A stretch of DNA of 64,000 bases, taken from Octopus vulgaris (lineage: Eukaryota). The notes below the pieces were generated by a model. That model did no database searches. It was not told the origin of the DNA and saw only the letters and a program-made list of their open reading frames with translations. This document shows, in pieces, positions 1,176-61,707 of this stretch. The translations under genes and the position numbers were made by a program. Location of the stretch: positions 744,001 through 808,000 of the forward strand of contig OX597825.1 in assembly GCA_951406725.2 (NCBI GenBank), read 5' to 3'. Positions within the stretch are counted from its first letter, which is position 1, and every line of letters begins with the position of its first letter.

Positions 1176-1751
1176 GTGATGCTGTTTGGGGTGATCGCTA
1201 GGGATTGTGACGTTATGCATCTATTCATCTTCCCACACTGCCTCAAACTCAATACAGAGGCATACATCAAGTGCCTGGAGGTAGCAATGCTGCCCTAGGT
1301 CAAGAGGGTGGTTGCTGGATGACACTATATCTGGCAACAGGACTCTGCACCATGCCACACAACCAGGAGAACCCAGTCATGGCTGTCAGAAAATTTCTGC
1401 GACCACGTCACCCCTAACATCTGGTCACCTAACTCCCCAAACTGCAACCCCCTTGATTATTATATGTGGGGCACCAACACAACTCCTTGCAACATCAAAG
1501 ATGAACTGAAGGCAAGGATTATGACAGCATTGACCAACTTAAACAAGGAGACCTTCCAGAAGAGTTTCAAGAGATTCCAAAGTCGTCTGAAGGCCATGTT
1601 TGAAGCCAATGGCGATTTTATTGAATAAATTTACTGTTTAGTATTTCAAGATATTTTAATGTAATTTTGGTAAATATATCTGTTAAAATTAGATGTCAGT
1701 GTTATCTTCATTTTTGTGTAATTCAGACAATAATTTATTCACTGCACCCTG
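1176..1751 (+). mobile_element. Degraded Tc1/mariner-superfamily (DD37D/maT-like) transposon, 3' half with right TIR
   Basis: Translates with stops to VMLFGVI...YIWQQDSAPCHT...WLSENF...IWSPNSPNCNPLDYYMWG. Ends in TIR-like ...aatttattcactgcaccctg followed by TA. Confidence 0.85.
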
Positions 1752-6432: not shown

Positions 6433-7298
6433 TGAGGTCTGATTAAAAAGTATCATGACTGGTGTATAAAAAGAAAACCACAACACATAACAATTTAGCA
6501 TTTCATCTCCTTTGAAGTAGTTCCCTTCTGATACCACACACCTTCTCCAGTGTCATTTCCACTGCTGGAAGCATTCCTGGAACTTCATTTTTGGCATCAT
6601 GGGCAGCTGCCTCATCATGTTCTCTTTGATTTCCTTGATGCCTTGAAATCTTGTTCCTTTCAAGAAGTGAGATCTGGGGAATATGGTGTTTGTCAGATCA
6701 AGGGGTCGTTGTGTTTGGCCCAAAACTACTGCAACTGAAAGTAGCTCTGATACAAACTTGATAGACACATGTCTCATACACCAATCTTCAATGAGAATTT
6801 GCTGAACTGAACTGTAACTCGTGTTCACATCCTCCAACAACTCTCACACGATGATTCCATGATTCTTCTGAACAGCTGCACACACACCTGTGATGTTTTC
6901 ATTAGTTTTGCTGGTTGTGGGTCTCTCAAAACATGTGTCACTGTCAATATTATGGCAGCCATCTTGGAAACATTTGAGCCACACATACTCCCGTGTCCGA
7001 CTCATGCACTCTTCTCCATACACTTTCTGCCACTTTGCTTAGATCTCTGTGAAGGTGTCACCAACCTTTTGGCAAAATTTGATGCAGATTCTCTGCTCAG
7101 TTTTCTCGGTGAGTCAACCACACACCACACACTTTACTTCTAAGCACTGCTATAAACAATGGAAGTGAGCAAGAATGTTATAACTTAGTGGCCATGTGTG
7201 ACAGAGTTCAAGGGTGAAACTATGCCAAGTGGCTTCACTTTGAGCACTTTAGCTCTGTTACCATGACATCAGTCCCAGGACTTTTTGATCAGACCTTG
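6433..7298 (-). mobile_element. Degraded mariner transposon, internally deleted, both TIRs present
   Basis: TA+tgaggtctgattaaaaagt and actttttgatcagaccttg TIRs. Minus-strand remnants SYSSVQQILIED..MRHVSIKFVSELL and LKGTRFQGIKEIKEN...FQECFQQWK. Same family as 60.8-61.7 kb. Confidence 0.85.
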
Positions 7299-16812: not shown

Positions 16813-19800
16813 ATGAGAAGGAGGGAGGCCATTAATTGGAAAGGCCACACCCTGGAAATTGTCGTACATGCCCCAAATGAGGTTCTGGAATCAAGGTCAG
16901 ATCAAATCTTTATAGGGGAGGGACTAAGTGCCCATGTTTCGGTGGAAGGTCAAAGACCGAGGTGTTTTAAGTGTGGTGAGAAGGGACATGTGAGGCCAGA
17001 CAGTGAAACGGCAAAAAAAGTAGATGTCCCTCCCCGAAAAGAAAAAGGTATAGAAACCAACAAGATGGAGGAGAAAAAAAACCGGGAAAACCAGAGAAAG
17101 AGACTAAGAAGAGGAGAATAAATCCCAGAAAACAAAAGATGGCAATAAAGGAAGTGAACGAGATAAAAGGGAAAAGATGGATTATACAGTTGTGACACAT
17201 AAAAGGTAAAAAACCCCAGCCCCTGACTCCCCTCCTCTAACAAAGAAAGCAATAACAACACGCATGCAGATACACAAGAAAAAATTCCCCAGTCCATTCC
17301 CAAATCGAAACCCCAGATCCCACCCCCCAATCAAAAGAAAGATACATAAAGTACAATGAAAAGAACCAAGTAATGGGTAGAAGACTCCCGCAGGTGTTCA
17401 TATCTAAGCAGGTACAACACATGCCAGCCCATATCCGGTTGGCAAAAGTTATTGACAATGAACTGTACGAATCATGTAAAAAAAAAGATATCCCAATGAT
17501 TTGCTGGATGTGACTAAAGAAGTGGTCCAGGAAATACTAGAGGCTGCACCCCAGAGAGAAAAAGAAGGAGAGACTGCCAAGATTAGTGCAGCCCTTCCCC
17601 AAAACGAAAAAACTTAAGTTTCTTTCTCTGTTTTAAATTCTTGCATGGAGATTAAAGTAAGGTGTATAAATGAGATGGAAACAAATTTGTCTCCTGAACG
17701 ACTTCAGGTCACTAAATTTGGATATATGAGTGGTAACTGAGTCCAAGTTGAATGAGCCACATATGTTCTCACCTCTTCTAGGAGGCGCAGGTGTGGTGAT
17801 TTTGTTCAGAAAAAGCTTGGACGTACAGGTAAGTACAGTCTTTCTGAACCCAGAAGGTAGGCTGGTAGACCTAGATGTGACACATGTAAGTAAGCAGTCT
17901 TTCAGGTTGGTAGTTGTCTATGCTCCGAATGAGTGTAGGCAAGCTGGGGTTTTTTTGTGACTTGGAGAATTTCTTAGTAATGTCTAAGACTCTAGTTTTA
18001 ATAGGAGACTTTAACACTAACTTTAACTCATTCGATGCATGAGTGGATAGTGTTGGCTCAGCAAAATGAAGGGGAAATCCTGGTCTGAAAAGGCTACTAA
18101 CAAGGTATGACTTAGTAGACTGTTATAGGTTGGATGAACCACTTGTTCCACAGTGGACGTGGTCTAATAATGACAGTTCACAAAGGTCTTATCTCGATAG
18201 AATATTCATTAGAGATAAGGATACTGTTAGTTGTCCATGTTTCTATTGCATCCCTTACATGGATCACAAATTTGTGACGTGTAAGGTGTACTTAGTTAAG
18301 TGCCATAGACGGGGACCAGGGTACTGGAAGCTAAACAAGTCTATTTTGACTTGTAAAACCTTCTGTGCCCGGATTAAGGAATTAGTTCAGAGGGCATTAT
18401 GTGGTGCCATCATCAATAATAGATGGTGGTGGGCCCTCAAAAGAGCCATTTGTTCAGAGTCTGTTAGATTTAGCAAACAGCTAAGTTTAGAAAAGACTAG
18501 AATAGAAGGGAAATTAGTTAAGGAATTAGAAGAGGCCATGGAATCTGGCTCTGTATCTAGAGTGACAGTGGCGAGGGCGGTCTTGTTTCGCCACCTCAAA
18601 GCCAAACACGAAGGGTGTAGAGTCAGGGCTATGTTATGTGCAGTGGGGAGAGTTGCCGGATGGGATTGTCATGTGGAGAGTCGTAGAGGCAGAGAAACCT
18701 CTATAAAGTCTTTAATTGATGAGCAGGGCTTTTCTGGGACCTGGAGAACTTCTTAGTGACGTCAAAAACTCTAGTTGTACTTGGAGACTTTAACACTATT
18801 CTCGATGCATGGGTGGATAGTGTTGGGTCGACCAATAGAAGGGGAAACCCTGGCCTCAAAATGCTACTAGAAAGCGAGCCATTCATTCTATATTCTATTA
18901 GATTTAGTAAACAGCTAAGTCAAGATAAGATTCAAATAGAAGGGACCTTAATTAAGGAATTAGATGAAGCCATGGAATCCGGGTCTGCAGCCAGAGTGAT
19001 GGCAGCAAAAGTGGTTTTTTTTTCCATCATCTCAAAGCCAAACACAAAAGGTATAGAGTCAGAGCTAAGCTTTGTGTGGTGGGGAGAGAGGGTATTAACA
19101 TTGCCGGACGGGCACATCGTGTGGATATTCTTTAATGGACGAACATATGCGTATGATGGAAGAACAGGAAGAGATGCAAAAGGCTTTTCACCAGCATTTT
19201 GCTTGGTTGTTTGGGGAGAGTGCCAGGCTGGACTGTGGGGAGTCCCCCTAAGGAACTCCCTTGCCAGTGGGCCATGACTCTTGGCACAGGAGGTGGAATG
19301 CTGTGAAGGGCTGATTATGGCTATGGAGGTTGAAGAGGTGCTGGCTGAGTGCACCAGGGACAAGTTGCCGGGGCTGGATGGTCTGCCCTATGAATTTTAT
19401 TGTAGCATGCCAGACTTATTCGGACACTTGCTGGCCTGCATCTACACTAACTGGCAGCAGGATAGGAGGATTCCCAGCTCTGTGAGTCAGGGACTGGTGA
19501 CGCTGATCAGAAAAGACTTGAGCAAGGGGGACCATATTAGTAATTTTAGGCCCATAATTCTACTCAATGTAGAGTTAAAGATTTTGGCCAAGGTGTTAGC
19601 AAAGAGGTTGGCGAGTGTTGCGAAGAAACTTGTTGGGAGAGTGCAGACATGCACCATCCAATTCAGGTTGATCCAGGACAATCTCCATCTCCTGCGCTAC
19701 ACCTTAGAGAGGGTGGGTAAATTATCCAGTAAAGGTCGGGCACTGGTCCATTTAGACCAGAGTAAAGCTTTTGATAGCGTAGACCACTAGTACCTGGCGG

Positions 19801-28568: not shown

Positions 28569-29539
28569 AAACACACCCACCCACAAAATCAAGGAAGTTA
28601 AGCACTAATTCTCGTTCTTGCAGAGCTGGAAAAAGCTTTAAGGACAAATTATATCAAGTTGCACAGAGATGAGGTAGCTAAGTCATCATTATGAAGAATA
28701 TGTGAGAAGAAATAAAAATGTAGCAGATTTGCTAAGTGAATGCTGTAAAGTGGTTGAGAGAGAATCTAAAAGAAGACGTAATAATGTTGTGCAGATTTGT
28801 CCATTGAGAATTTTGTGGTCAGGATAATTTGAAAGAACAAGAAAGTGGTTAGAGCATCTGGCTTTTGGATATAATTGAGTCTAAATGTATCAATATATAC
28901 ACTTTTATTTCATTTCTGTATCCTAATACAGCTTTATGGTAGAGACAAGTTGACCAAATACAACTGTAGTTGACAATCAGTTAAGAGCAGGTAAAATTCA
29001 TCAATTTAATAAAATTCAGGAATGCTAGAATTGGATTTCAAGAAAAATCTAAAAAAAAAATCTAGAAATATCAGGACTTCAAATAAGACATTTCACATAT
29101 ATATTCACTAAAGAAGATAAATGCAATTCCAGTAATGTTAGGCTCCCAAGGAATGGTATATTAGAGAGTTGCTGAAGTATGGAGCACTTTGGGAAAATAT
29201 TTTATTGAGAATAGATAAACTATTGCAAAAAGTATTAGGAGAAGATCTTCGGTAAAATGTGAGATGAAATGGGAAGGAAAGAAATGGAATCCAATTGCAG
29301 ACCCCCTCCTTTTAGAGTAACAGTTTCCATAAAACTGAGCAAAGAAACAATGACGCCGCCAACGCCGCCGACGCCAATGAGGTCCTTGTTGTGACTTGGC
29401 AAACAGTACAAACCCTCAGTAGATAGAATATCTTCTATCAACAACCTCACGATATTGTATGCTGTGCAACATCAATAATAATAATGATGATGATGATAAT
29501 AATATCATCATCATCATCATGTTTGCCACTGATGCGGAA

Positions 29540-29998
29540 ACTGATATAAATATACAGTGCGACCAAGTCATACAGGTGAGAAGGCCAGATATCATGATCA
29601 TCCATAACGATGAAAAAGAAGTAAAGATAATAGATGTTGCAATACCAGGTGATTCGCAGGTGAAATGTAAGGAAACAGAAAAGTGTGAGAAATAGCAGCC
29701 ACTGCGGGACGAGATGGGTAAGTTATGGGGCATGAGGAAAGTAATGGTGATGCCAGTGGTAATTGGAGAATTAAGAGCAGTTTCTAAGGACTTTGAAAAA
29801 TATATTAAGAATATTGGAGCTGCTGACAGGCTCAGAGTGATCCAGAAGACAGCATTGTTGGGTACAATTCGCATTCTAAGGAGAGTATTGTCTCTGAGTC
29901 ACAGGAGAAGGCACCACTTGAAACCTTTGGTGATTTGTTATTGTCTGCTTTTAAGTAAAGAACAACCAGTCATTAAGAACTATCCGAGAGTCTTCCAG

Positions 29999-30052
<54 letters not shown>

Positions 30053-30055
30053 AAC

Positions 30056-30087
<32 letters not shown>
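29540..30087 (+). mobile_element. 5'-truncated Dong/R4-clade LINE (restriction-like endonuclease) with (CAA)n(TAA)n tail
   Basis: RRPDIMII...IIDVAIPGD...KETEKCEK*QPL...PVVIGELRAV...IQKTALLGTIRILRRVL. Confidence 0.88.
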
Positions 30088-30090
<3 letters not shown>

Positions 30091-30649
30091 TAAATGCCCT
30101 GATGCAGTACCAGGCAGTGGTTCTCATGGCTTCTGATCTTAACTGGTTGGAAGTGTTATCATGTACATTGTTTTGTCTTGGTATAAAAGATGGGCTACAG
30201 CAAATATTCTGCCCAATACCACAGATTTGCTTGTCAGTTGTTTGACCATAACCAGTTGAGCAAGTCCCTTAGTGGCTGATGATATGTGCATCTCTGATCA
30301 CGAGCAGAAGTAGTGGAGGAGCATCATAGCCATGTGTTGAGAGGGATTCTTTGGGGTTTGAATGATTCACCTCTGGAAACATGGGTGTTTCGTTCAACAT
30401 CCTTAAACAACCCTTATTCAGGGACCTTTTGAGTGGGTTGGATTACTTGACCAGAAGAAAATTCTAACTGGGCCCCACCTGCAAGGTCATGCGCTGTTTA
30501 TCTTGATATGAGATCACCATGTCGTGCACATATGGCTGTGATGCATGTGCCTGGTGTACCCTTATCAGATGGGTAGTCATGATGGGTATACTGGGCTTTG
30601 TATATTTTACCCCAGTGTCACTTTGATGGCATGCACTGCTCTCTCACTC

Positions 30650-31899: not shown

Positions 31900-33008
31900 C
31901 GAGGCCTGATCCAGTTTGAACTAGCTTACAAAACAACCACAATTGGACTGGCCAAATATCTTGAAATAACAAATGACTGGATGCTAAAGCTTGTGGAAAA
32001 TCATGAGAGACGAAAGAAGCTTCATTCTATCATAAAGGAAAGCAAAAAATTTGCTATTGATCTCGTGCAGGATACCCAAACTGAACAACCCGAGGGAAGT
32101 ACGGCAACTATTGTTGCAAAGAAGGTGAAAATAATGGCAATGAAAAAAGCGCACGAGCAATTGGCTGATAGGTGGGAGGAGAAACCTCTGCACGGCAAAT
32201 ATGTGGCTGGCTGCTGAAGATCAAAGCCTATTAACCCGGAACTACCAGGCCAATGTGATGAAAAATGGAGCAGACCCCAAATGCTGATTCTGCAACGACA
32301 TGATTGAAACAGTGGACCACCTAATCTCTGGATGTAAAGTCTTAGCACCAGTGGAGTATAAATTAAGACATGACAGAGTTGGCCAATATCTACACTGGCT
32401 AATAAGTCGGCATTGCAATATCAAAACTGCTGACAAGTGGTATAATCACCACCCTGAAGCTGTAACTGAAGGAGAAAATGTAACGATTCTGTGGGACTTT
32501 CCAGTACATACAGACCGAACCATCAAAGCCAATAAACCAGATATTGTTGTGAAAGACCAAAACAATAAAGTTTGCTTATTGATCAACATGAGCATCCCCT
32601 GTGATCATAATATCTCGGTGAAAGAGTTTGACAAGCTCAGAAAATATAAAGACCTGCACATTGAAATTGAGAAAATGTGGCATCTCAAGGTGGTTACAGT
32701 ACCAGTGATCGTAGGAGCACTAGGAATGATCAAGAAGGGAACCGAAAATTATATGAGAATGATCCCTGGCTTACCATCCCTGCAAGAAGTGCAAAACATT
32801 GTCTTAACTGGTACATCACATGTATTGAGAAGAGCATTGTCGATGTGAGAATTATTACTACCCATGTATTTTAATTTAACTTTATTTCTATCAAAAAAAA
32901 AAATGAACGAACTAGTGAGTTTAGTTTAATGGCCTACCAATGTATACTATGAGTTTCTTTGCCCTAGGAGTCAGGAAGACACTTGGCAAGAAATGGAAGC
33001 AAATTTGA

Positions 33009-33253: not shown

Positions 33254-35627
33254 CTGAAAGCCAAATATCTGTCAGAAAATGAAACAGAACACTTGAAAAA
33301 AAAAGAATACACAATGGAAACACAAGTTACAAAACAGAAAACAAACAAGAAAAATAATAAACATTTAAGACATAAATCATGAAGACAGAACTAGAACACA
33401 GAAAACAAAGAAATAACACAAATTCTAAAACCTATATAAAAACTGACCAACAAAAATGAGATCGAACAGCACCAACAATAATATGCATAAAAGAGAATAA
33501 AAAGAAAGAGGTTTACGAATATAGAGCAGCCAGCGTAAATTAGAAAGGTAATTGGGTACTAAAGTCATACAACAAAATCCAAATCAAAACAAACAACATG
33601 GAAAATAAACAAACAGAAAAGAATTAAGAGGAAAAAAGAGAGAAAGAAGACAACAGAAATACAACAATGAAAGAATGAAACCCCACAAAAAAAAAAAAAG
33701 GATAAATAAAGCTTAAAAAATTGCTAAATCACAAAGAATCTGGTAGTTTGAAAAGTGGCAGTGATTCTTTGAACAGTTAGAATCCAGTTCCAAACAAGTT
33801 TATCAAGAATTAGGTAAAAACAAAATGGAAATCAGCACAACACAAATGGCAAACGAAATCAAGGAATTTTAGAAAGATAGATTTATGGAGAGTGAAGTAA
33901 TTGTGACAGAGAAAGGATTTACTCAAATAACAAATATTATCTGAACAATTGTTGATGGGATATAACAATACAAGAGGTACCTCAACCACTACAAACAACT
34001 GGAAGGCACCAGGACATGATAAGATCCCAAACATCTGGGTAAAATATTTAACAGGAACATAGGTGTAGGCATGGTAGTAGAGTTGAGAAGCATGCTCAAT
34101 AGCAGTGTGCAGAACCTTGGACAAGTGTCTTCTAATATGTCCCTAGGCTGACCAAAGCCTTGTGAGTGGTTTCATGGTTGTAAATTTGAATGAAGCTAAA
34201 TTGTGTGTGTGTGTGCGTGCGCTTGCCTTGATGGTTGTAAATGTGCATCGTACAAGTAATATTGTTCATTTCTAGTTTTCTGTATGAAACATATCTGGCT
34301 TTGGAAACAGGTCAGGATTGGCAACAGGAAAGGCATCCAGCTGTTGGGAATCTGCTTCAACAAATTCTGTCTCATTCGCAAGTATGGAAAAGTGGACATT
34401 AAATGATGATGATGTGAGATATGAGCAGAGATACTTAATAAGATACTGACGAAGCTGTAAAAATACCGAATTGGCTCAGTGAAGTAAAAAATAAAAAAAG
34501 ACAAAAGCAAAAAAAAAAACGTTAACCTTTTTTTTTTACTATATATCTGTTGAAATACATTATTGTTGCTTTAATTCAATTTTATAAATTAGTAAAATAC
34601 CTTGTCATTATGAAGGTGGTATTTGAAACATAACATGACATTTTAATGGAAGGTTTTGAAGTGCACTTTCTGTGCATCCTGCAGCCAGGAGCAGCATCAG
34701 GTGAGTTGGTATGAAAAGGGTTAATTTGTAAAACTAAGAGAAACAATAGAATCTAAAACTTACAGACCTATAAGCTATCATTCTACTACTTACAAAGCTT
34801 TAACTGAAATAATATCAAAGAGAATAACTAAAAATCTAGCAAAGAAAAACTAACCAAAAAGAAATCCAACTCGTTTCTGAAAGAGCAGAAAGGTTGTTGC
34901 AAAGATTCATATGGCTGTCAAAAGCAATTACTGATCAACTGTAGGTTTTGTTACATTTTATATGGTTGCAAGCACAACAAAATATATAAAAAAAATTGGT
35001 TTCTCATTTTCAAAATAGCAAACAAGTACAAAAGAGAGGCTGAAATAATATAAGTAGTTGTGAGGAGAAAGGAAAAAGAGCAGCAGAAGTTGTGAAAAAC
35101 TTAAGTTAGGAAAATGGTCCGTAGAATGTTATGCTTAGGTGATAGCAAAAAAAGCCCCTAGATGAGTTATGCCTGAGAAGAGAAACTGAACAAGGAGGAA
35201 ATAAACAAAGAGAAATCATAATACTGATTAAGAAGGATTCAAAGTTAAAACTGAAAGATTCTTTATTCTCTTGGAGTTAGGCTGGCATAATGAAACAGCA
35301 GCAGAAAAGAGGTGGAATGAGTCTGAAAGAATGACAAAGCAACCATACTTTGGGATATGCCAATCCATTCAGGCAGGAAGAACAAGAATAATTGGCCAGA
35401 TATTGCTATCAATGACAATTAGGAAAGAAAGTACCCCCTAATGGAAGTGTTACCTGAACAAATAATAATGTATCTCTAAAAAAGATGGAGAAATTATGCA
35501 AACATTGATATCTGAAAATAGAGAACATCAGAAGATGAAAACTGTAATAAGTTTTATATTGAAGAGATGAGGAATTATTTACATTATTTACAATTGATGG
35601 ATATTTGTCCTCATCTTGTTCATTGTT

Positions 35628-35673
35628 AACACAATGTTTTGCCTGATATACCCTCCAGCCTTCATCAGATGTC
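35628..35673 (-). ncRNA. Type-I hammerhead ribozyme (family A, GAAA mutated)
   Basis: rc: GACAT CTGATGA aggctg gagggtatat caggc AAAA catt GTGTT. Confidence 0.65.
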
Positions 35674-36308
35674 TTGGGGGAAATTTCGAACCTGGGCTCT
35701 CATTCCTAAGGTATTTTTCAATGTTGTTATTATTATTATTATTATTGTTATTATTATTGTTATTATTATTATTATAACTATTATTATTATTCAGGTCACT
35801 GCCTGGAATCGAACTCAGAATCTTGGGGTTAGTAGCCCGTGCTCTTAACCACTAAGCCAATTCACCTGACACTGCTCCTGGTTGTATGATGCACAGATCT
35901 TGTTTTAAAGTATGCTTTAAAAACCTTCCATTAAAATTTCATGTTATGTTTCAAATAACCACCTTCATAATGACAAGGTATTTTAATAATTTATAAAATT
36001 GAATTAAAACAACTATAATGTATATCAACAGATATATAGTAAAAAAAAAAGGTTAACACTTTTTTTTACTTTTGTCTTTTTTTTATTTTTTACTTCACTG
36101 AGCCAATTAGGTATTTTTACAGCTTCGTCAGTATCTTTCATCATCACTTAATGTCCACTTTTCCATGAGCCCATGGGCATATGGTGTAGTGGTTAAGAGC
36201 GCGGGCTACTAACCCCAAGATTCTGAGTTTGATTCCAAGCAGTGACCTGAATAATAATAACATCAAAAATACCTTAGGAATGAGAACCCAGATTCAAAAT
36301 TTCCCCAA

Positions 36309-36350
36309 GACACCTGATGAAGGGTGGAGGGTAAATCAGCCGAAACGTTG
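36309..36350 (+). ncRNA. Type-I hammerhead ribozyme (family A)
   Basis: GACAC CTGATGA agggtg..cagcc GAAA CGTT G. The 3' strand of stem I is lost by deletion. Confidence 0.7.
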
Positions 36351-37999
36351 ATCAGCTGTCAATTGCAAATAATGTAAATAATGAAAACTGTAAACAAAAC
36401 AACCTGTATACATGCTTTTGGAAGGATCAAAAAACATGCAGACAAATATATAAGCAAAACCAAAGGATTTACTAATGTGCACAACATTAGTACTACTAGA
36501 CACCACACACATGGTACTGTTAATATAATAGAAATTACAAAACCAAAACAAGTCACTACACGTAGCCAAGGCATAGTGTTGTATTGAATAGTACACTGAA
36601 AGCACGTAATAAAAATAAGAGTACCGAATAATAATAATAATAATGATAATAATAATAATAATAATAATAATAATATGAAGGAATAATTATAAGAAATTAC
36701 AAGGAGGAACATAACATCATGTGATGTTCTTGAAAGTTAGTCCAGTTATATCTGAACAATTAATGCCTTATTTTCACTGGAAATCAAATACACATTTCAT
36801 GTAAGAAAAAAAGGGACTAGAAGGGGTCAGATAATGAACTGGATAGGAAATGTGAAACTAAGAAAAGAAGTTGAGGGTCATCTGCTCATTGTTATTTCTC
36901 ATGCCACACCAATTCACACATCTTATTTGAGCTCAGCTTCAGTCCCACTCTGTGGGAAGTTGGGCAAATGTCTTCTACTAAAGCCCTAAGCTGACCAAAG
37001 TGTTGCAAGTGAATTTAGTAGACAGAAACTGAAAAAAGCTAATTGTATATCTGTGTTTGTGTGTGTTTGTGTGTATTTGTCTTGACATCACATGAAGTTG
37101 TAAATAAATGTTATCCTCATACAAGCAGTGCCCTTCATTTCCAATCTTCATCAAAAAACATTATTCAATCAAAGGAAAATATTAGCTTGCTTGGAAACAG
37201 GTGAAGGTTGGTGACAGGAAGGGCATCCAGCTGTGGAAAATCTGCCTCAGGGAATTCCACTTGACCAAAGCAAGCATGGAAATGGGGGATATTAAAACGA
37301 TGGTGATAATGATGATGAGTCTGTATAATTTGTTGTACAACACCAAAAACTGAGGAAGATAAATGTCAAAACTAGAAATGCCTCATTATGCATAATATTC
37401 ATTACACATAAATATTACCATCCTTCATTATATCTAATATTTGCCATCCTTCAATGGACATCCTTCACAGTCTATTTTGCCAAGAATTGAAGATGGCAGC
37501 GAATAATCTCAGGCATAAATAAATATAAAGTAACAACAAGTGGCTTAGAAAGAGACAACCAATAATTGGATTCTTTAACTATTTTTCTTGTTTTTCTTTT
37601 TCTGTGGTACAACATTAAGTAAACATCTTTTGTTAGCAACCGGCTGAAGTAAGCTAGGAATTGACATTGTAAATATCTCTGAACAAATGAATACAGTCAA
37701 TATTGTTTAGCCCAAGGCTGGCCCTCACTGAACAAACCTATGATCAAAAGAGTTCCAATTACAATCATCTTATGTTATTTTTAAGAACTACATTATCCGA
37801 TGTGCATTTTCCTTTCAAGCTGATAGAACTTAAAGATTTGACAACTAGTTGTAGTAAATAAATTTCTCTGGGTATATATTAATAAAAAACATGAACTCAT
37901 ATGATACTGTTACAAGAAATATATGCTTTTGGCCACTGAATATTTTGGTTGAATGGTAATAATATTATTGTGAGAGTATATACTCTTATAGTCTATATC

Positions 38000-54559: not shown

Positions 54560-55890
54560 AGAACTACGACATGACCTTTAAAAGACATATCGAGGATACA
54601 TGGAAAAGATACCTTGATGACTGTTTCCAAATTTGGACCAAATCCCTAGAAAATCTGGAAGAATTCAGCACCCTCCTCAATAATCTAAACCCTGGTATCA
54701 AATTCACAAGAGAAATGAGCAACACACGATTCCCATTTCTTGACAAATGGTAATTAAAAACAACTTCACAACCTCAACTGATATTTATTACAAAAGCACA
54801 GATACACACCTGTACCTAAATTTCAAATCATGCCACCCAACACACACAAAACACAACATCCCGTACTGTTTAGCCAGGAAAATTTGTATTATAGTCGATA
54901 ATCCAAATACCAGAAACACACAACTTATAGAACTCAAAGGGTTTCTGCTCAAGCAAAATGACCCTCCCCTACTGATAGAAAATAGCATACAACGAGCAAA
55001 AGAGATACCTATAGAACAACTTAGAGCAACAAAAAAAAGACAAACCCATCAAAGGAACACAATACCATTTCTAGTAACATACAATCTACATCACCAAAAC
55101 ATTTTAAACATCATCAAAACAAATTTGCCAATCATAAAACAAAGTGAAAAATTAAAAAAACATAATAACTAATCAAACACTTAACTTAAGCAAAAGGCCA
55201 CCACATAACCTGAAGGATCTATTAACAAAGGTGGGGTGAGCTGGCAGAAACGTTAGCACGCCAGGTGAAATGCTTAGCGGTATTTCGTCTGCCGCTACAT
55301 TCTGAGTTCAAATTTCACCAAGGTCAACTTTGCCTTTCATCCTTTCGGGGTCGATAAATTAAGTACCAGTTATGCACTGGGTCGATATAATTGACTTAAT
55401 CCGTTTGTCTGTCCTTGTTTGTCCCCTCTGTGTGTAGCCCCTTGTGGGCAGTAAAAAAATAAGAAACTATTAACAAAGGCAAAATTCAACATAAACAAAT
55501 GAGAGAACACATTCACAGTATCCATGTGTAATGGTAACAGATGTGGAATATGTCCCTACATGTGTACGGGTAGATCCATTAGAACAGATTTTCGCAAATA
55601 CAAATATGAACTGCAAAAGCAGAAATTTTACCTACTGCATTAAATGCCCAAATTGCAAGGAATTATATATAGGCGAGACAGGGAATGCATTATCGGAACA
55701 CTCATGAATCCACAGACAACATATCTGGAACTCCAATGTCCACCAAATTCCATTGAATGAACATAAAGAGACATGTGGTCAAAAAATGCTTCTAATTTTT
55801 CCTTTCCACAAACTACAAGACACAAGTGAAGTTGGAAGAAAGATAAACGAAAAACGGTTCATTAAAATGATCAAACCGGTTCTGAACGGA
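54560..55890 (+). mobile_element. Degraded Penelope-like element (RT C-terminal half, Cys linker, GIY-YIG endonuclease; Neptune-like)
   Basis: WKRYLDDCFQIW, IKFT, FPFLD, TDIYYKSTDTHLYLNFKSCHP; KRPPHNLKDLLTKA; CNGNRCGICPY; NFTYCIKCPNCKELYIGETG. Confidence 0.92.
55232..55466 (+). mobile_element. Young Nin/Deu-domain SINE nested in the Penelope ORF, 13-bp TSD
   Basis: TSD ctattaacaaagg at 55219-55231 and 55467-55479. Highly similar to the 13572 copy. Confidence 0.92.
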
Positions 55891-56223
55891 AATAACAGCA
55901 ATAATATAACAACCAGGTAAAGATGTGGATGAATAAATATAAACAAGTTACAAAATATTGGTATACCTGGCAAACCATGATGTTTAAGAGTATGTGGATT
56001 GGTTAAAAAGGTATTCAAAAAATTCAGCTGGTTGGAGAGTTCTAAGAGGTACTAAAGTTGTCAAGAACTCTCCTGTCAGTTAAATACATTTGAAATTTGA
56101 TGATTACACTATGTATGGAAGCATTAATTTTGTTAAAATACGATAATAAAAAAACATGAAAACCAGACTGTTTTAACTTTATTCAACTGATATATTATTC
56201 TACACACATTCACACACATTCAA

Positions 56224-56684
<461 letters not shown>

Positions 56685-57067
56685 GTGGCCTATTGGATGT
56701 TATACATTGCTAGTTACAATGCACTTGATATCACTTTTTAGCTTCTGAATGATGGCATCCTGCTGGTTAGCGCAGTAGGCCAACATCCCCACCCTGATCA
56801 GAAGGCTGGTCCAATGCAGGGTCACTCATTCACAGCTGAGTGGACTGGAACAATGAGAAATGAAGTGTTTTGCTCAAGAACACAATGCACCACTCAGTCT
56901 GGGAATTGAACCCATGATCTAGCAATCATGAATGCAAAAACTTAACCAATGGGCCACATGCCTTTACATACATGCACACACACACACATGCATATATACA
57001 TATTAAAACATAATCATTGTTCATTATTTACATTCGACGGATATTTGTCCTCATCTTGTTTGTTGTT

Positions 57068-57113
57068 AACACAATATTTCGGCTGATATACCCTCCAGCC
57101 TTCATCAGGTGTC
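57068..57113 (-). ncRNA. Type-I hammerhead ribozyme (family A)
   Basis: rc GACAC CTGATGA aggctg gagggtatat cagcc GAAA tatt GTGTT. Confidence 0.78.
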
Positions 57114-57390
57114 TTGGGGAAATTTCGAACCTGGGTTCTCATTCCTAAGGTATTTTTTGATGTTGTTGTTATTATTATTATTATTATTATTGTTAGGTCA
57201 CTGCCTGGAATTGAACTCGAAACCTTGGGGATTAGTAGCCCGTGCTCTCAACCACTACACACATTCACACTAATTTGAAACAATATATATATATATATAG
57301 GGAGAATTCACAAAAAAAAACAAAAGATGAAGATGGGTGGTGTAGAAAACAAACAGATGTATTAGTATAATGCTTGGGAATTGAAAAACT

Positions 57391-57426
57391 CTTTAATGTT
57401 TCGAGCCTACGCTCTTCCACAGAAAG
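57391..57426 (-). ncRNA. Hammerhead-like motif (family E) in a secondary insertion at 57300-57475
   Basis: rc CTTT CTGTGGA a gagc-gtag-gctc GAAA catt AAAG; variant core. Confidence 0.6.
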
Positions 57427-57575
57427 AAACAAGGAGAGAAAAAAAAATGCGTGTAGTGGCTACTGATCTGTCATGTATATAAATGTTCAAGTGGCGTAGT
57501 GGTTAAGAGCATGGGCTACTAACCCTAAAATTCCGAGTTTGATTCCAGACAGTGATCTGAACAATAATAATAATG

Positions 57576-57623
<48 letters not shown>

Positions 57624-57670
57624 TTGTAAAATACCTTAGGAATGAGAACCCAGGTTCGAAATTACCCCAA

Positions 57671-57716
57671 GACACCTGATGAAGGCTGGAGGGTATATCA
57701 GCTGAAATGTTGTGTT
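57671..57716 (+). ncRNA. Type-I hammerhead ribozyme (family A)
   Basis: GACAC CTGATGA aggctg gagggtatat cagct GAAA tgtt GTGTT. Confidence 0.78.
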
Positions 57717-58431
57717 AATAACAAACAAGATGAGGACAAATATCGTCAAATGTAAATAATGTAAATAATGTAAATAATTCCTCATCTCTTAAATATAGAA
57801 TTGTATAATCATTGTTGTATTTTTTCTTCTTTATTTGTATGATGTCCTTTTATTTCATAATAGCAGAGCTCAGATAGCTTGACAGGACCTATTCTCAGGC
57901 ATCTCAAACATCTTTGAATCCCTCATTGATCGCTTTTTAATATGCTTAAGTCTCTTAGACCTTCTTTAAATATTTATTCGTGGTTCACTCTATGCCGGGT
58001 TCTTTTCTTTCTCAACACCTTCTATTTCCCAAAGAGCATATACAATATATGACCAGAAGGCAATGAGAAATCCCCTATGTTATTCTCCCATAAAAATTCT
58101 ACAACAAGCACATACCACTCATCAAGGAAATCCGCATCAGGGGCCGCCCTTCAACCTGACAGCATAAGAAATGGAGGAATACATTGTATATTCACACGAC
58201 ATGGCTAAACTAAATCTATCAACTCTTGTTAAAACATTTATCTCCCAATGGCTTTTATAACTATTCACTTCACAGATTCTGTTTATCAGATGTTATAATC
58301 AAAGTATAATCCAGTGGATTATACTCAATTTGTTCCTCTTCAATTCAAATATGATCTTTAGTTTTCTATTCTCAGAATCATATAACCAGTTGACTAACCC
58401 CTAACAACAGTATCAAACAAGGAGAATATAT

Positions 58432-60814: not shown

Positions 60815-61707
60815 TATTCCGATCAATAAGTATCTAGACTGTTGCCATAGTAACGAAGCTAAAGCACACAGAGTGAAGCCACTTGGCACGGATTGACCTT
60901 GAACTCTGCTGTGCATGCACACTAAGTTTTAATGTTCTAGCTCATTTCAGCTGTTTACAGCAGTGCCTGGAAGGAAGGTGTGTAGCGTGTGATTGCCACA
61001 TTGACCTTGACAGAGAAAGTTGAGCAGAGAATCTGCATTAAAGTTTGCCAAAAGCTTGGTGATACCTGCTCAGAGGCCTACACAAAATTTCCAAAACGTT
61101 TTCACCGTTCTTAACACAATCAAGGAGATCTTGTGCAACTGAAACCCGAGTATCTTTTTGGTTAGCTGAAAGCAGTTTGGGCACAAACTTGGGAGACACA
61201 CGTCTCATACCCAAATCTTCAGTGATAATGGACTGAACTGAACCGTAACTAATCTGCACATTCTCTGACAACTCACAGATGGTGTTTCGACAATTTCCCC
61301 TTGCAATTGCATGCACATCTGCAATGTTCTTCTCTGTTTTGCTGGTTGCAGGTCTCCCAGAAAATTCGTCACTATTGACATTTTTTCGACCATGTTGGAA
61401 GCATCTGAACCACCTGTACACTTGTGTGTAACTCATAAACTCCTCTCCATACACTTTCTGCAACTTTGTGTTGGCCTCTGAGCAGGTGTCGCCATGACAA
61501 CTTTCTCTGTCATGGTCAATGTGATGATCACACGCTACACACGTTCCTTCCAAGCACTTCTGTAAAAAGCAGAAGTGAGCTAGAACATTAAAACTTAGTG
61601 CACATGCACATCAGAGTTCAAGGTCAATTTGTGCCAAGCAGCTTTACTCTGTGTGCTTTAGGTTTATTGCTATGGCAACAGTCAGGATACTTATTGATCA
61701 GACCCCT
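60815..61707. mobile_element. Mariner derivative with two inverted 5' ends; minus-strand HTH transposase remnant
   Basis: 60815-61090 is an inverted copy of about 61460-61705. ORF reads VYGEEFMSYTQVYRWFRCF..SGRP..ISYGSVQSIITEDLGMRRVSPKFVPKLL. Confidence 0.88.

What the first reader, a model, noticed from the sequence alone, without database searches (positions are those of the whole stretch)
35535..36393. tRNA-headed, hammerhead-bearing retroelement that integrates as a TSD-flanked head-to-head inverted pair
Seen: each arm is a tRNA-like Pol III head (A box TGGYGTAGTGG, B box GAGTTYGATTCC), then (AAT)n, then a minimal type-I hammerhead (GACAC CTGATGA..GAAA cgtt GTGTT), then (AATGTAAAT)n. Two arms point outward and the whole ~0.8-kb unit is bounded by one direct repeat (13 bp here, 12 bp at 57010-57816), so each pair looks like a single integration. 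In both composites only one arm has the full terminus (cctcatctctt.aatata.aa); the other stops in the AATGTAAAT repeats. Known: minimal type-I hammerheads with palindromic stem III and inverted pLTR insertions are typical of Penelope-like elements and retrozymes, whereas ordinary SINEs use LINE 3' tails. Inference: a non-coding SINE/retrozyme hybrid, transcribed by Pol III, self-cleaving and mobilised by Penelope-like RT/GIY-YIG machinery.
Basis: partly seen in the sequence, partly recalled or inferred. Interest (0 to 1): 0.9.

Follow-up and report, generated by a model that had tools for sequence, protein, structure and literature searches.

The report
Penelope transposon end with tRNA promoter
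These paired repeats are the truncated ends of a protein-coding Penelope-type jumping gene, inserted head-to-head as such elements are known to be; the unusual part is a tRNA-like promoter sequence built into that end, which may let it be copied on its own like a SINE.

Summary
The anatomy is real: 13- and 12-bp target duplications, head-to-head arms, one long and one short end. It is the rule genome-wide: 43 of 68 sampled units are divergent pairs, 40 of 43 are long+short, and 21 of 43 have a ≥12-bp duplication against 0.6% in controls.

The arm is not a separate non-coding SINE. It is the pseudo-LTR (pLTR) of an autonomous Penelope/Poseidon-type element. It follows the RT–GIY-YIG ORF in 25 of 30 ORF loci, and its 'body' is the ORF's own 5' end, read in frame through the hammerhead. 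Inverted pLTRs, the one-sided 'tail' and the minimal hammerhead are all published Penelope traits.

I did not find in print the tRNA-Arg-like A/B-box head, which sits inside the pLTR just upstream of the start codon. Arms end sharply near its +1 (24 of 38 within -7..+4), which fits a short Pol III template; snap-back at a small hairpin there is an unexcluded rival. RNA reads were uninformative.

Both window units also captured 140-300 bp of DNA from about 1 kb away at their junction; none of 100 other junctions convincingly did.

Verdict: new variant of a known kind.

The parts
35535..35547 (+). left target-site duplication (13 bp)
   Evidence: exact repeat of 36381-36393
35548..35703 (-). left arm body: first ~52 codons of the PLE ORF (ATG at 35703, +1 frameshift soon after), long end including the 'tail'
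   Evidence: BLAST to arm 1-179; frame 35409-35699 reads ...PKTSDEGWRVYQAKHCVNNEQDEDKYPSIVNNVNNSSSLQYK; same region in ORF-linked copies
35628..35673 (-). degenerate minimal type-I hammerhead (G12 and stem III mutated)
   Evidence: sequence, fold, family columns
35725..35791 (-). (AAT)n tract between head and ATG
   Evidence: TRF
35792..35859 (-). left tRNA-like head with A and B boxes, 5'-truncated at about +8
   Evidence: sub-threshold Rfam tRNA hit
35860..36166 (+). junction insert: inverted copy of window 34384-34706
   Evidence: 88% over 274 nt plus 97% over 29 nt; CCAA microhomology at the left join
36169..36249 (+). right head: starts at -6 of the tRNA-like sequence (+1 = 36175); A box 36182-36192, B box 36227-36235
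   Evidence: closest to genomic tRNA-Arg among 8 tRNAs compared
36250..36380 (+). short (AAT)n, ATG 36280, hammerhead core 36309-36349 (stem I 3' strand lost), short end in the AATGTAAAT repeats
36381..36393 (+). right target-site duplication
34384..34706 (+). local source of the junction insert of unit 1
35330..35523 (+). older LINE fragment hosting unit 1, left part (continues 36425-36669)
   Evidence: collinear 68-71% match to the LINE 3' end in L029; 'R4/Dong-like' label is recalled from motifs, not tested
57010..57816 (.). second unit: TSD 57010-57021/57805-57816; left arm (-) short end 57022-57258; junction insert ~57253-57493; right arm (+) long end 57492-57804, ATG 57642
56200..56344 (+). 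local source of the junction insert of unit 2 (direct copy)
   Evidence: 41 nt at 90%, E 8e-11; far end and CTACAC/TGGC microhomologies by eye

Best explanation
The two arms are 5'-truncated pseudo-LTRs of an autonomous Penelope/Poseidon-type retrotransposon, likely inserted in one event by that element's RT/GIY-YIG protein and probably copied from a short RNA that would start at the tRNA-like promoter inside the pLTR. SHOWN: the element order is tRNA-like head - (AAT)n - ATG - hammerhead (codons ~10-25) - NVN repeats - tail - rest of ORF (RT, C-terminal GIY-YIG with CCHH) - ~45-nt spacer - head again; pairs have one long and one short end and often 12-14-bp duplications; 5' ends pile up near tRNA +1. 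INFERRED from the published PAc biochemistry: the endonuclease cuts both strands with a 12-14-nt stagger; each end primes cDNA inside the ORF start, at one of two sites ~30-45 nt apart (short and long ends); the two cDNAs are joined at their growing ends by microhomology or by snap-back at the TGCCC-AC-GGGCA hairpin. INFERRED and weaker (about 50-55%): the template is usually a Pol III transcript from the A/B boxes, so any pLTR with an intact head can act as a SINE-like source. The hammerhead would cleave at GUU only as a dimer or with protein help.
For: Head directly follows the ORF 3' end in 25 of 30 ORF-selected loci (five share one duplicated block and one is the query locus). The arm's long end abuts the ORF continuation in 13 of 30 loci selected on the ORF 5' part. 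ORF followed by head+body in 11 of 15 long copies; L172 and L185 read from the arm's ATG through the hammerhead into the N-terminal domain, L185 with one early stop. That reading aligns with an intact 847-aa homologue, TLDEGWRVYQPKRCVN vs TPDDGRRSNWPKRCVN, E 3e-20. RVT_1 hit, E 6e-8; C-terminus aligns with a Pfam GIY-YIG domain, E 2e-13, with invariant Y, C, Y, G, R, H, H, E. Census: 43 of 68 units are pairs, 40 of 43 long+short, 0 long+long; body ends 59 at 128-156, 52 at 175-182, none at 157-174 (n=118); TSD >=12 in 21 of 43 vs 0.6%. 34 ORF-linked vs 71 ORF-free arms differ at one column only, inside the search pattern. 5' ends: 24 of 38 arms reaching +4 stop within -7..+4; 19 of 30 in a partly overlapping head-selected set. 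Published match: inverted pLTR + TSD + 31-bp tail on one arm + ORF start inside the pLTR (PMC3846280); two RT start sites define the tail (PMC11167929).
Against: No intact ORF copy was found; 12 long copies are 91-96% identical to column majority and those translated carry stops. Direct Pol III evidence is missing. RNA reads from three runs of another species label lie equally in both directions, rise toward the 3' end as the copies do, and show no start pile at the head. Palindromes at pLTR 5' ends occur in PLEs without tRNA heads, so the pile-up need not mean Pol III. 22 of 43 pairs lack a >=12-bp duplication, and 25 of 68 units are not scored as pairs. Lack of T4 runs in the ORF is shared by unrelated LINEs here. 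Only 15 of 67 hammerhead copies keep all elements.
Confidence: 0.8

Rival explanations
1. The tRNA-like head is a passenger: a tRNA-(AAT)n retrocopy fixed in the UTR of the founder. All arms are ordinary 5'-truncated copies of the full Pol II RNA, with RT stalling or snapping back at the small hairpin.
For: 5'-terminal and junction palindromes are known in other PLEs; known PLE promoters are Pol II-type within the pLTR. 13 junction arms read (T)ATGCCCAC, the fold-back form, and 0 the genomic TTGCCCAC. The head's T and acceptor stems no longer pair. (AAT)n also ends a LINE family in this genome.
Against: Snap-back needs the cDNA to end at -6/-7, and a 5-bp hairpin is a weak stop for RT (own knowledge). 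The truncation hazard falls from ~0.04/nt at the head start to ~0.001/nt in the ORF. A box (23 of 35) and B box (30 of 35) are retained.
Confidence: 0.4
2. One reading: an independent non-coding SINE/retrozyme family that only borrows PLE enzymes.
For: 58 of 68 units carry no ORF piece; 5' ends at tRNA +1; a few solitary head+body copies have their own duplication (L227 21 nt, L207 11 nt). An HHR-bearing SINE-like family, SMalpha, is described in schistosomes.
Against: The same head lies in the ORF-linked pLTR; the body is coding; no diagnostic differences and mostly the same frame class, 13 of 20 vs 8 of 10; only one direct double of the body without ORF (L012) was seen and no arrays.
Confidence: 0.07
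3. The whole 2.7-kb autonomous element is a Pol III transcription unit translated from uncapped RNA.
For: No T4 run is shared by even 3 of 12 long copies, against 27 A4 sites shared by at least 6; some upstream pLTRs begin within the head (L067, L173).
Against: Only ~3-4 T4 runs are expected, so the absence is not significant; RLE-type LINE pieces are as T4-poor (1 in 2,764 nt).
Confidence: 0.12

Closest known systems
Penelope/Poseidon-clade PLEs (Pen2a_Av of Adineta vaga, PAc of Anolis carolinensis)
   Same: Single ORF RT + C-terminal GIY-YIG; pLTR contains the ORF start and a minimal hammerhead; inverted 5'-truncated pLTR, TSD, 30-40-bp tail on one end only, palindromic junctions (PMC3846280 passages; PMC11167929 parts 1-2 of 4; PMC8557442 passages).
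   Different: The pLTR here begins with a tRNA-derived A/B-box segment and (AAT)n; the described pLTR promoters are TATA/Inr or intron-associated. Most copies here are pLTR-only pairs.
Minimal hammerheads of metazoan PLEs (Cervera and de la Pena 2014, PMC4209133)
   Same: 5-bp stem I, unpaired A before stem II, palindromic loop-less stem III; opposite-strand pairs 100-700 bp apart already noted in Schistosoma as probably truncated PLEs (part 1 of 4 and passages).
   Different: No tRNA head reported in the passages seen.
SMalpha/Sjalpha hammerhead-bearing SINE-like repeats; non-LTR retrozymes
   Same: Short repeat with type-I hammerhead; retrozymes are argued to derive from PLE pLTRs (10.64898/2026.07.22.740005, part 1 of 5 and passages; PMC8490949 and PMC7229834 passages). 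The tRNA-like promoter of SMalpha is recalled; that paper was not held.
   Different: Those are tandem, non-coding and use canonical hammerheads. This arm is dispersed, inverted, coding-derived and still attached to its autonomous element.
TRIMp3 elements Cassandra, Helenus, Ajax (Kojima 2024, PMC10886601)
   Same: Small-RNA-derived Pol III promoter embedded in a terminal repeat, possibly from a SINE insertion (passages).
   Different: LTR class and non-autonomous; the paper expects autonomous partners not to share the Pol III repeat, whereas here the autonomous element carries it. 'Penelope' occurs 0 times in its text.

Membership tests
EN+ Penelope-like elements | single ORF with RT and C-terminal GIY-YIG endonuclease | tested here: met
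   the direct Pfam GIY-YIG hit is weak (E 0.23 on P0019, none on L059), support is by alignment to scoring relatives
EN+ Penelope-like elements | CCHH motif with two Cys between GIY and YIG | tested here: met
   YSIPCSCGRLYKGET...EH...DH in natural copies; motif definition
EN+ Penelope-like elements | pLTRs flanking the ORF and containing its start | tested here: met
EN+ Penelope-like elements | inverted 5'-truncated copy, TSD, tail at one end only | tested here: met
Penelope/Poseidon clade | no CX2-5CxxC finger in the RT-EN linker | tested here: met
   none seen by eye in translations
Penelope/Poseidon clade | RT phylogeny with reference clades | not tested
   no named reference proteins among the hits
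Minimal type-I hammerhead | CUGANGA, GAAA, NUH, stems I/II, palindromic stem III | tested here: met
   met as the commonest state in 67 copies; 15 of 67 fully intact; Rfam gives no hit; not met in the two arms at 35535-36393
Minimal type-I hammerhead | self-cleavage | not testable with these tools
   needs an in vitro assay
tRNA-derived SINE | tRNA-related head with A and B boxes | tested here: met
   49/75 and 51/75 identities to genomic tRNA-Arg, z 8.8 and 7.2, best of 8 tRNAs compared out of 30 fetched; not all isotypes held
tRNA-derived SINE | non-coding family distinct from its autonomous partner | tested here: not met
tRNA-derived SINE | Pol III transcription from the head | tested here: inconclusive
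   5'-end pile-up; RNA lay uninformative
Non-LTR retrozyme | head-to-tail tandem non-coding units with a hammerhead each | tested here: not met
   inverted pairs dominate; no arrays seen

The most novel reading that the evidence does not exclude
An autonomous Penelope-like element that carries its own SINE: a tRNA-derived Pol III promoter inside the pLTR makes each pLTR a short transcription unit containing the hammerhead, the protein-binding region and both RT start sites, and this short RNA, not the mRNA, is the main template for the tens of thousands of inverted pairs. This would be a PLE-mobilised, SINE-like amplification mode and a visible intermediate in the birth of SINEs/retrozymes from pLTRs.
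Probability: 0.45. Interest if true: 0.65.

Novelty: new variant of a known kind. Interest (0 to 1): 0.42.

Why it matters
Most of the structure is textbook Penelope biology, but this family gives a large natural data set for it. The strict long+short asymmetry (40 of 43) constrains how the two internal RT start sites are used at the two target ends. If the Pol III step holds, it links PLEs, SINEs and retrozymes within one element, and some repeats annotated as SINEs in such genomes would be PLE ends. The captured local DNA in both window units shows the inversion joint can template-switch onto sequence about 1 kb away.

Tried and rejected
Rfam and ARAGORN: no hammerhead or tRNA call. Random census of 800 kb gave only 3 sites, too few, so a pattern-ordered census replaced it. 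An intron in the AATGTAAAT/tail region was considered and dropped: the frame is open and homologous without it. A separate ORF-free subfamily was not found. A free head+(AAT)n SINE was not supported: 25 of 30 heads have a body downstream, and two more have a body remnant or an inverted body. T4 depletion as Pol III evidence was rejected after controls. Sequencing runs: no RNA holder listed. No solved PLE structure in the PDB by sequence; only weak group II-like RT hits. Local templating as a general feature: 16 of 100 junctions have a >=20-nt non-simple insert, 2 gave short local hits that are unconvincing (flanks only 1.5-2.5 kb). No host exon was recognised in the window, so the strand of any host transcript is unknown. 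Base composition of target sites and a full tally of duplications around solitary arms were not obtained. Earlier scan findings: none. Ohshima and Okada 1994, Ferbeyre 1998 and Lunse 2017 were not held.
Full report
1. Observation. The window holds four arms in two head-to-head units. Unit 1 is bounded by ATGAAAACTGTAA at 35535-35547 and 36381-36393, unit 2 by ATAATCATTGTT at 57010-57021 and 57805-57816. Unit 1 splits an older LINE fragment that matches the LINE end in L029 collinearly on both sides, 68-71%, so it is one insertion. Each unit has one long and one short end, as reported. The quoted hammerhead is a composite: in unit 1 the left arm has lost G12 and stem III and the right arm has lost the 3' strand of stem I. 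Rfam and ARAGORN call neither a hammerhead nor a tRNA.

2. Abundance. The genome is 2.8 Gb; its repeats resemble those of an octopus (recalled, not tested). A 26-nt core pattern has 6,481 exact matches and a 32-nt head pattern 2,155, with reversed controls at 0. At about 6% divergence this implies roughly 20-30 thousand arms (my estimate). 800 kb of unselected sequence held 3 sites, about 10 thousand genome-wide with wide error.

3. Census. I took the matches in genome order over the first 25.5 Mb of contig C1: 70 loci fetched, 3 overlapping ones dropped, one listed match skipped because it was already held as L040. This left 68 units; two of them are halves of one split insertion duplicated elsewhere. 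43 units are divergent pairs: 40 long+short, 3 short+short, none long+long. Of 118 body ends, 59 fall at 128-156, 52 at 175-182 (182 is the query end), none at 157-174 and 7 are shorter. A direct repeat of at least 12 nt (one mismatch allowed) flanks 21 of 43 pairs against 0.6% of shuffled flank pairs; two or three of these are low-complexity. 10 of 68 units carry ORF pieces.

4. The arm is a pLTR. L010 showed a GIY-YIG-like frame directly upstream of a head. In 30 loci selected on that ORF piece, the head follows about 45 nt after it in 25, and head or body in 27 (five share one duplicated block, one is the query). In 30 loci selected on the ORF 5' part, the arm's long end runs straight into the ORF in 13. 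Of 15 long copies, 11 end in head+body, and L172 and L173 have arms on both sides. The ATG just after (AAT)n opens the frame: L172 reads MRIQVRNFPKTLDEGWRVYQPKRCVN...HLTFLCRCRD, which aligns with an intact 847-aa protein from another source, including the codons that overlap the hammerhead (E 3e-20). The 9-nt AATGTAAAT repeats keep frame (NVN). The left arm of the finding itself still shows this reading (only E 0.01 alone). RT is RVT_1. The C-terminus aligns with Pfam-scoring GIY-YIG domains and has the CCHH motif and no extra linker finger, which is the Penelope/Poseidon architecture. No tree was built. 34 ORF-linked and 71 ORF-free arms differ at one column, inside the selection pattern.

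5. Known biology explains most of it. Arkhipova et al. 2013 (PMC3846280, passages) describe an inverted pLTR completing the insert, a TSD, a 31-bp tail on one arm, the ORF start inside the pLTR, palindromic junctions and foreign DNA captured between pLTRs. Frangieh et al. 2024 (PMC11167929, parts 1-2 of 4) show both-strand cleavage, RT starting at two sites inside the ORF start that delimit the tail, and a protein-assisted hammerhead not needed for insertion in vitro. Cervera and de la Pena 2014 (part 1 of 4 and passages) define the minimal hammerhead and note opposite-strand pairs. The family's commonest letters give all core positions, a GUU site, 5-bp stems I and II and the AACGUU palindrome; 29 of 67 copies keep the core and 15 keep everything, with much of the decay at CpG positions.

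6. What is left. The head is tRNA-derived, nearest to tRNA-Arg among 8 genomic tRNAs compared (z 8.8 and 7.2). A and B boxes are kept in 23 and 30 of 35 copies, while the cloverleaf stems are broken. It is tied to the element: 25 of 30 head-selected loci have a body downstream. 5' ends are not spread as simple truncation predicts: 24 of 38 arms that reach +4 stop within -7..+4, and the hazard then drops about 30-fold; only 4 of 30 head-selected arms continue into the true spacer (about ten loci overlap the census). Among 82 head matches, 13 junction arms read (T)ATGCCCAC and none the genomic TTGCCCAC; 6 are full palindromes, 13 continue into the spacer, 5 are other and 45 lack the motif, a few of these being unrelated SINE heads. 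So the cDNA often ended at about -6/-7 and folded back, or came from an already inverted source. Both suggest an RNA 5' end there, 13-17 nt before the A box, as Pol III would give (inference). Against this: similar palindromes mark pLTR starts in PLEs without tRNA heads; three RNA runs of a different species label show both directions equally, depth rising with copy number and no start pile at the head, though fragmented cDNA libraries would hardly show one; and T4 poverty is not specific. I put the short Pol III template at about even odds.

7. Junction inserts. The 300 bp between the heads of unit 1 is an inverted copy of 34384-34706 (88%, with a 27-nt skip). In unit 2 the insert matches 56200-56344 directly, with microhomology at both joins (41 nt by BLAST, the rest by eye), and was later interrupted by a piece of another repeat carrying a different hammerhead-like motif. 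Read in the long arm's sense, both inserts are the window + strand and lie 0.7-1.15 kb to the left. A jump onto a nascent host RNA or resected flank would explain this (inference). None of 100 other junctions showed it convincingly, so its double occurrence here is unexplained.

8. Literature. Searches for a tRNA-derived Pol III promoter in a PLE, or a PLE-mobilised SINE, returned nothing that describes it: searches had 0 hits; some searches were seen as listings. Passages were read of the papers cited above and of PMC10886601, PMC8490949, PMC7229834, PMC3531059 and PMC13282606 (with a search of its one supplement), and part 1 of 5 of the 2026 retrozyme preprint, whose supplements were not seen. 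Repbase, Dfam and the 1994 octopus SINE paper were not available and could already list this repeat, possibly as a SINE.

9. Verdict. Real feature, mostly known mechanism, and not a stand-alone SINE/retrozyme. It is a PLE family whose pLTR contains a tRNA-derived promoter-like head: new variant of a known kind, interest 0.42.

Noticed in passing
window 35860-36166 and 57253-57493: Both units carry DNA copied from 0.7-1.15 kb to the left at the inversion joint, in the same sense relative to the long arm; not seen convincingly in 100 other junctions.
   Followed up: partly
window ~57300-57460 (-), motif at 57422: Piece of a different repeat inserted in (TA)n inside unit 2, with a hammerhead-like CTGTGGA...GAAAC motif; probably the pLTR of another PLE family.
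   Followed up: no
window 54744-55172 (+): ORF fragment resembling the post-RT region of another PLE family (by eye).
   Followed up: no
window 31910-32848 (+), 35100-36670 (+), 29423-30093 (+); L029, L012: Fragments of a LINE with REL-type motifs ending in (AAT)n (R4/Dong-like, recalled). Such LINEs and other repeats are often found inside the (AAT)n tract of the arm, separating head from body.
   Followed up: partly
window 18070-19790 (+): Degenerate L1/Tx1-like ORF2 fragments with an internal duplication (by eye).
   Followed up: no
window ~56810-56960 (-): A different tRNA-headed SINE just left of unit 2, with an unrelated body.
   Followed up: no
L046, L052, L053, L054, L060 (contig C31); L232/L233, L296/L297, L306/L308 (contig C1): Copies sharing flanks: segmental duplications that inflate copy counts.
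   Followed up: partly
L012:1004-1183 and 1501-1680: Two headless long-end bodies in direct orientation within AAT tracts, without ORF between them.
   Followed up: no
window 61038-61610 (-), 6553-6843 (-), 1323-1628 (+): Mariner/Tc1-like transposase fragments (by eye).
   Followed up: no
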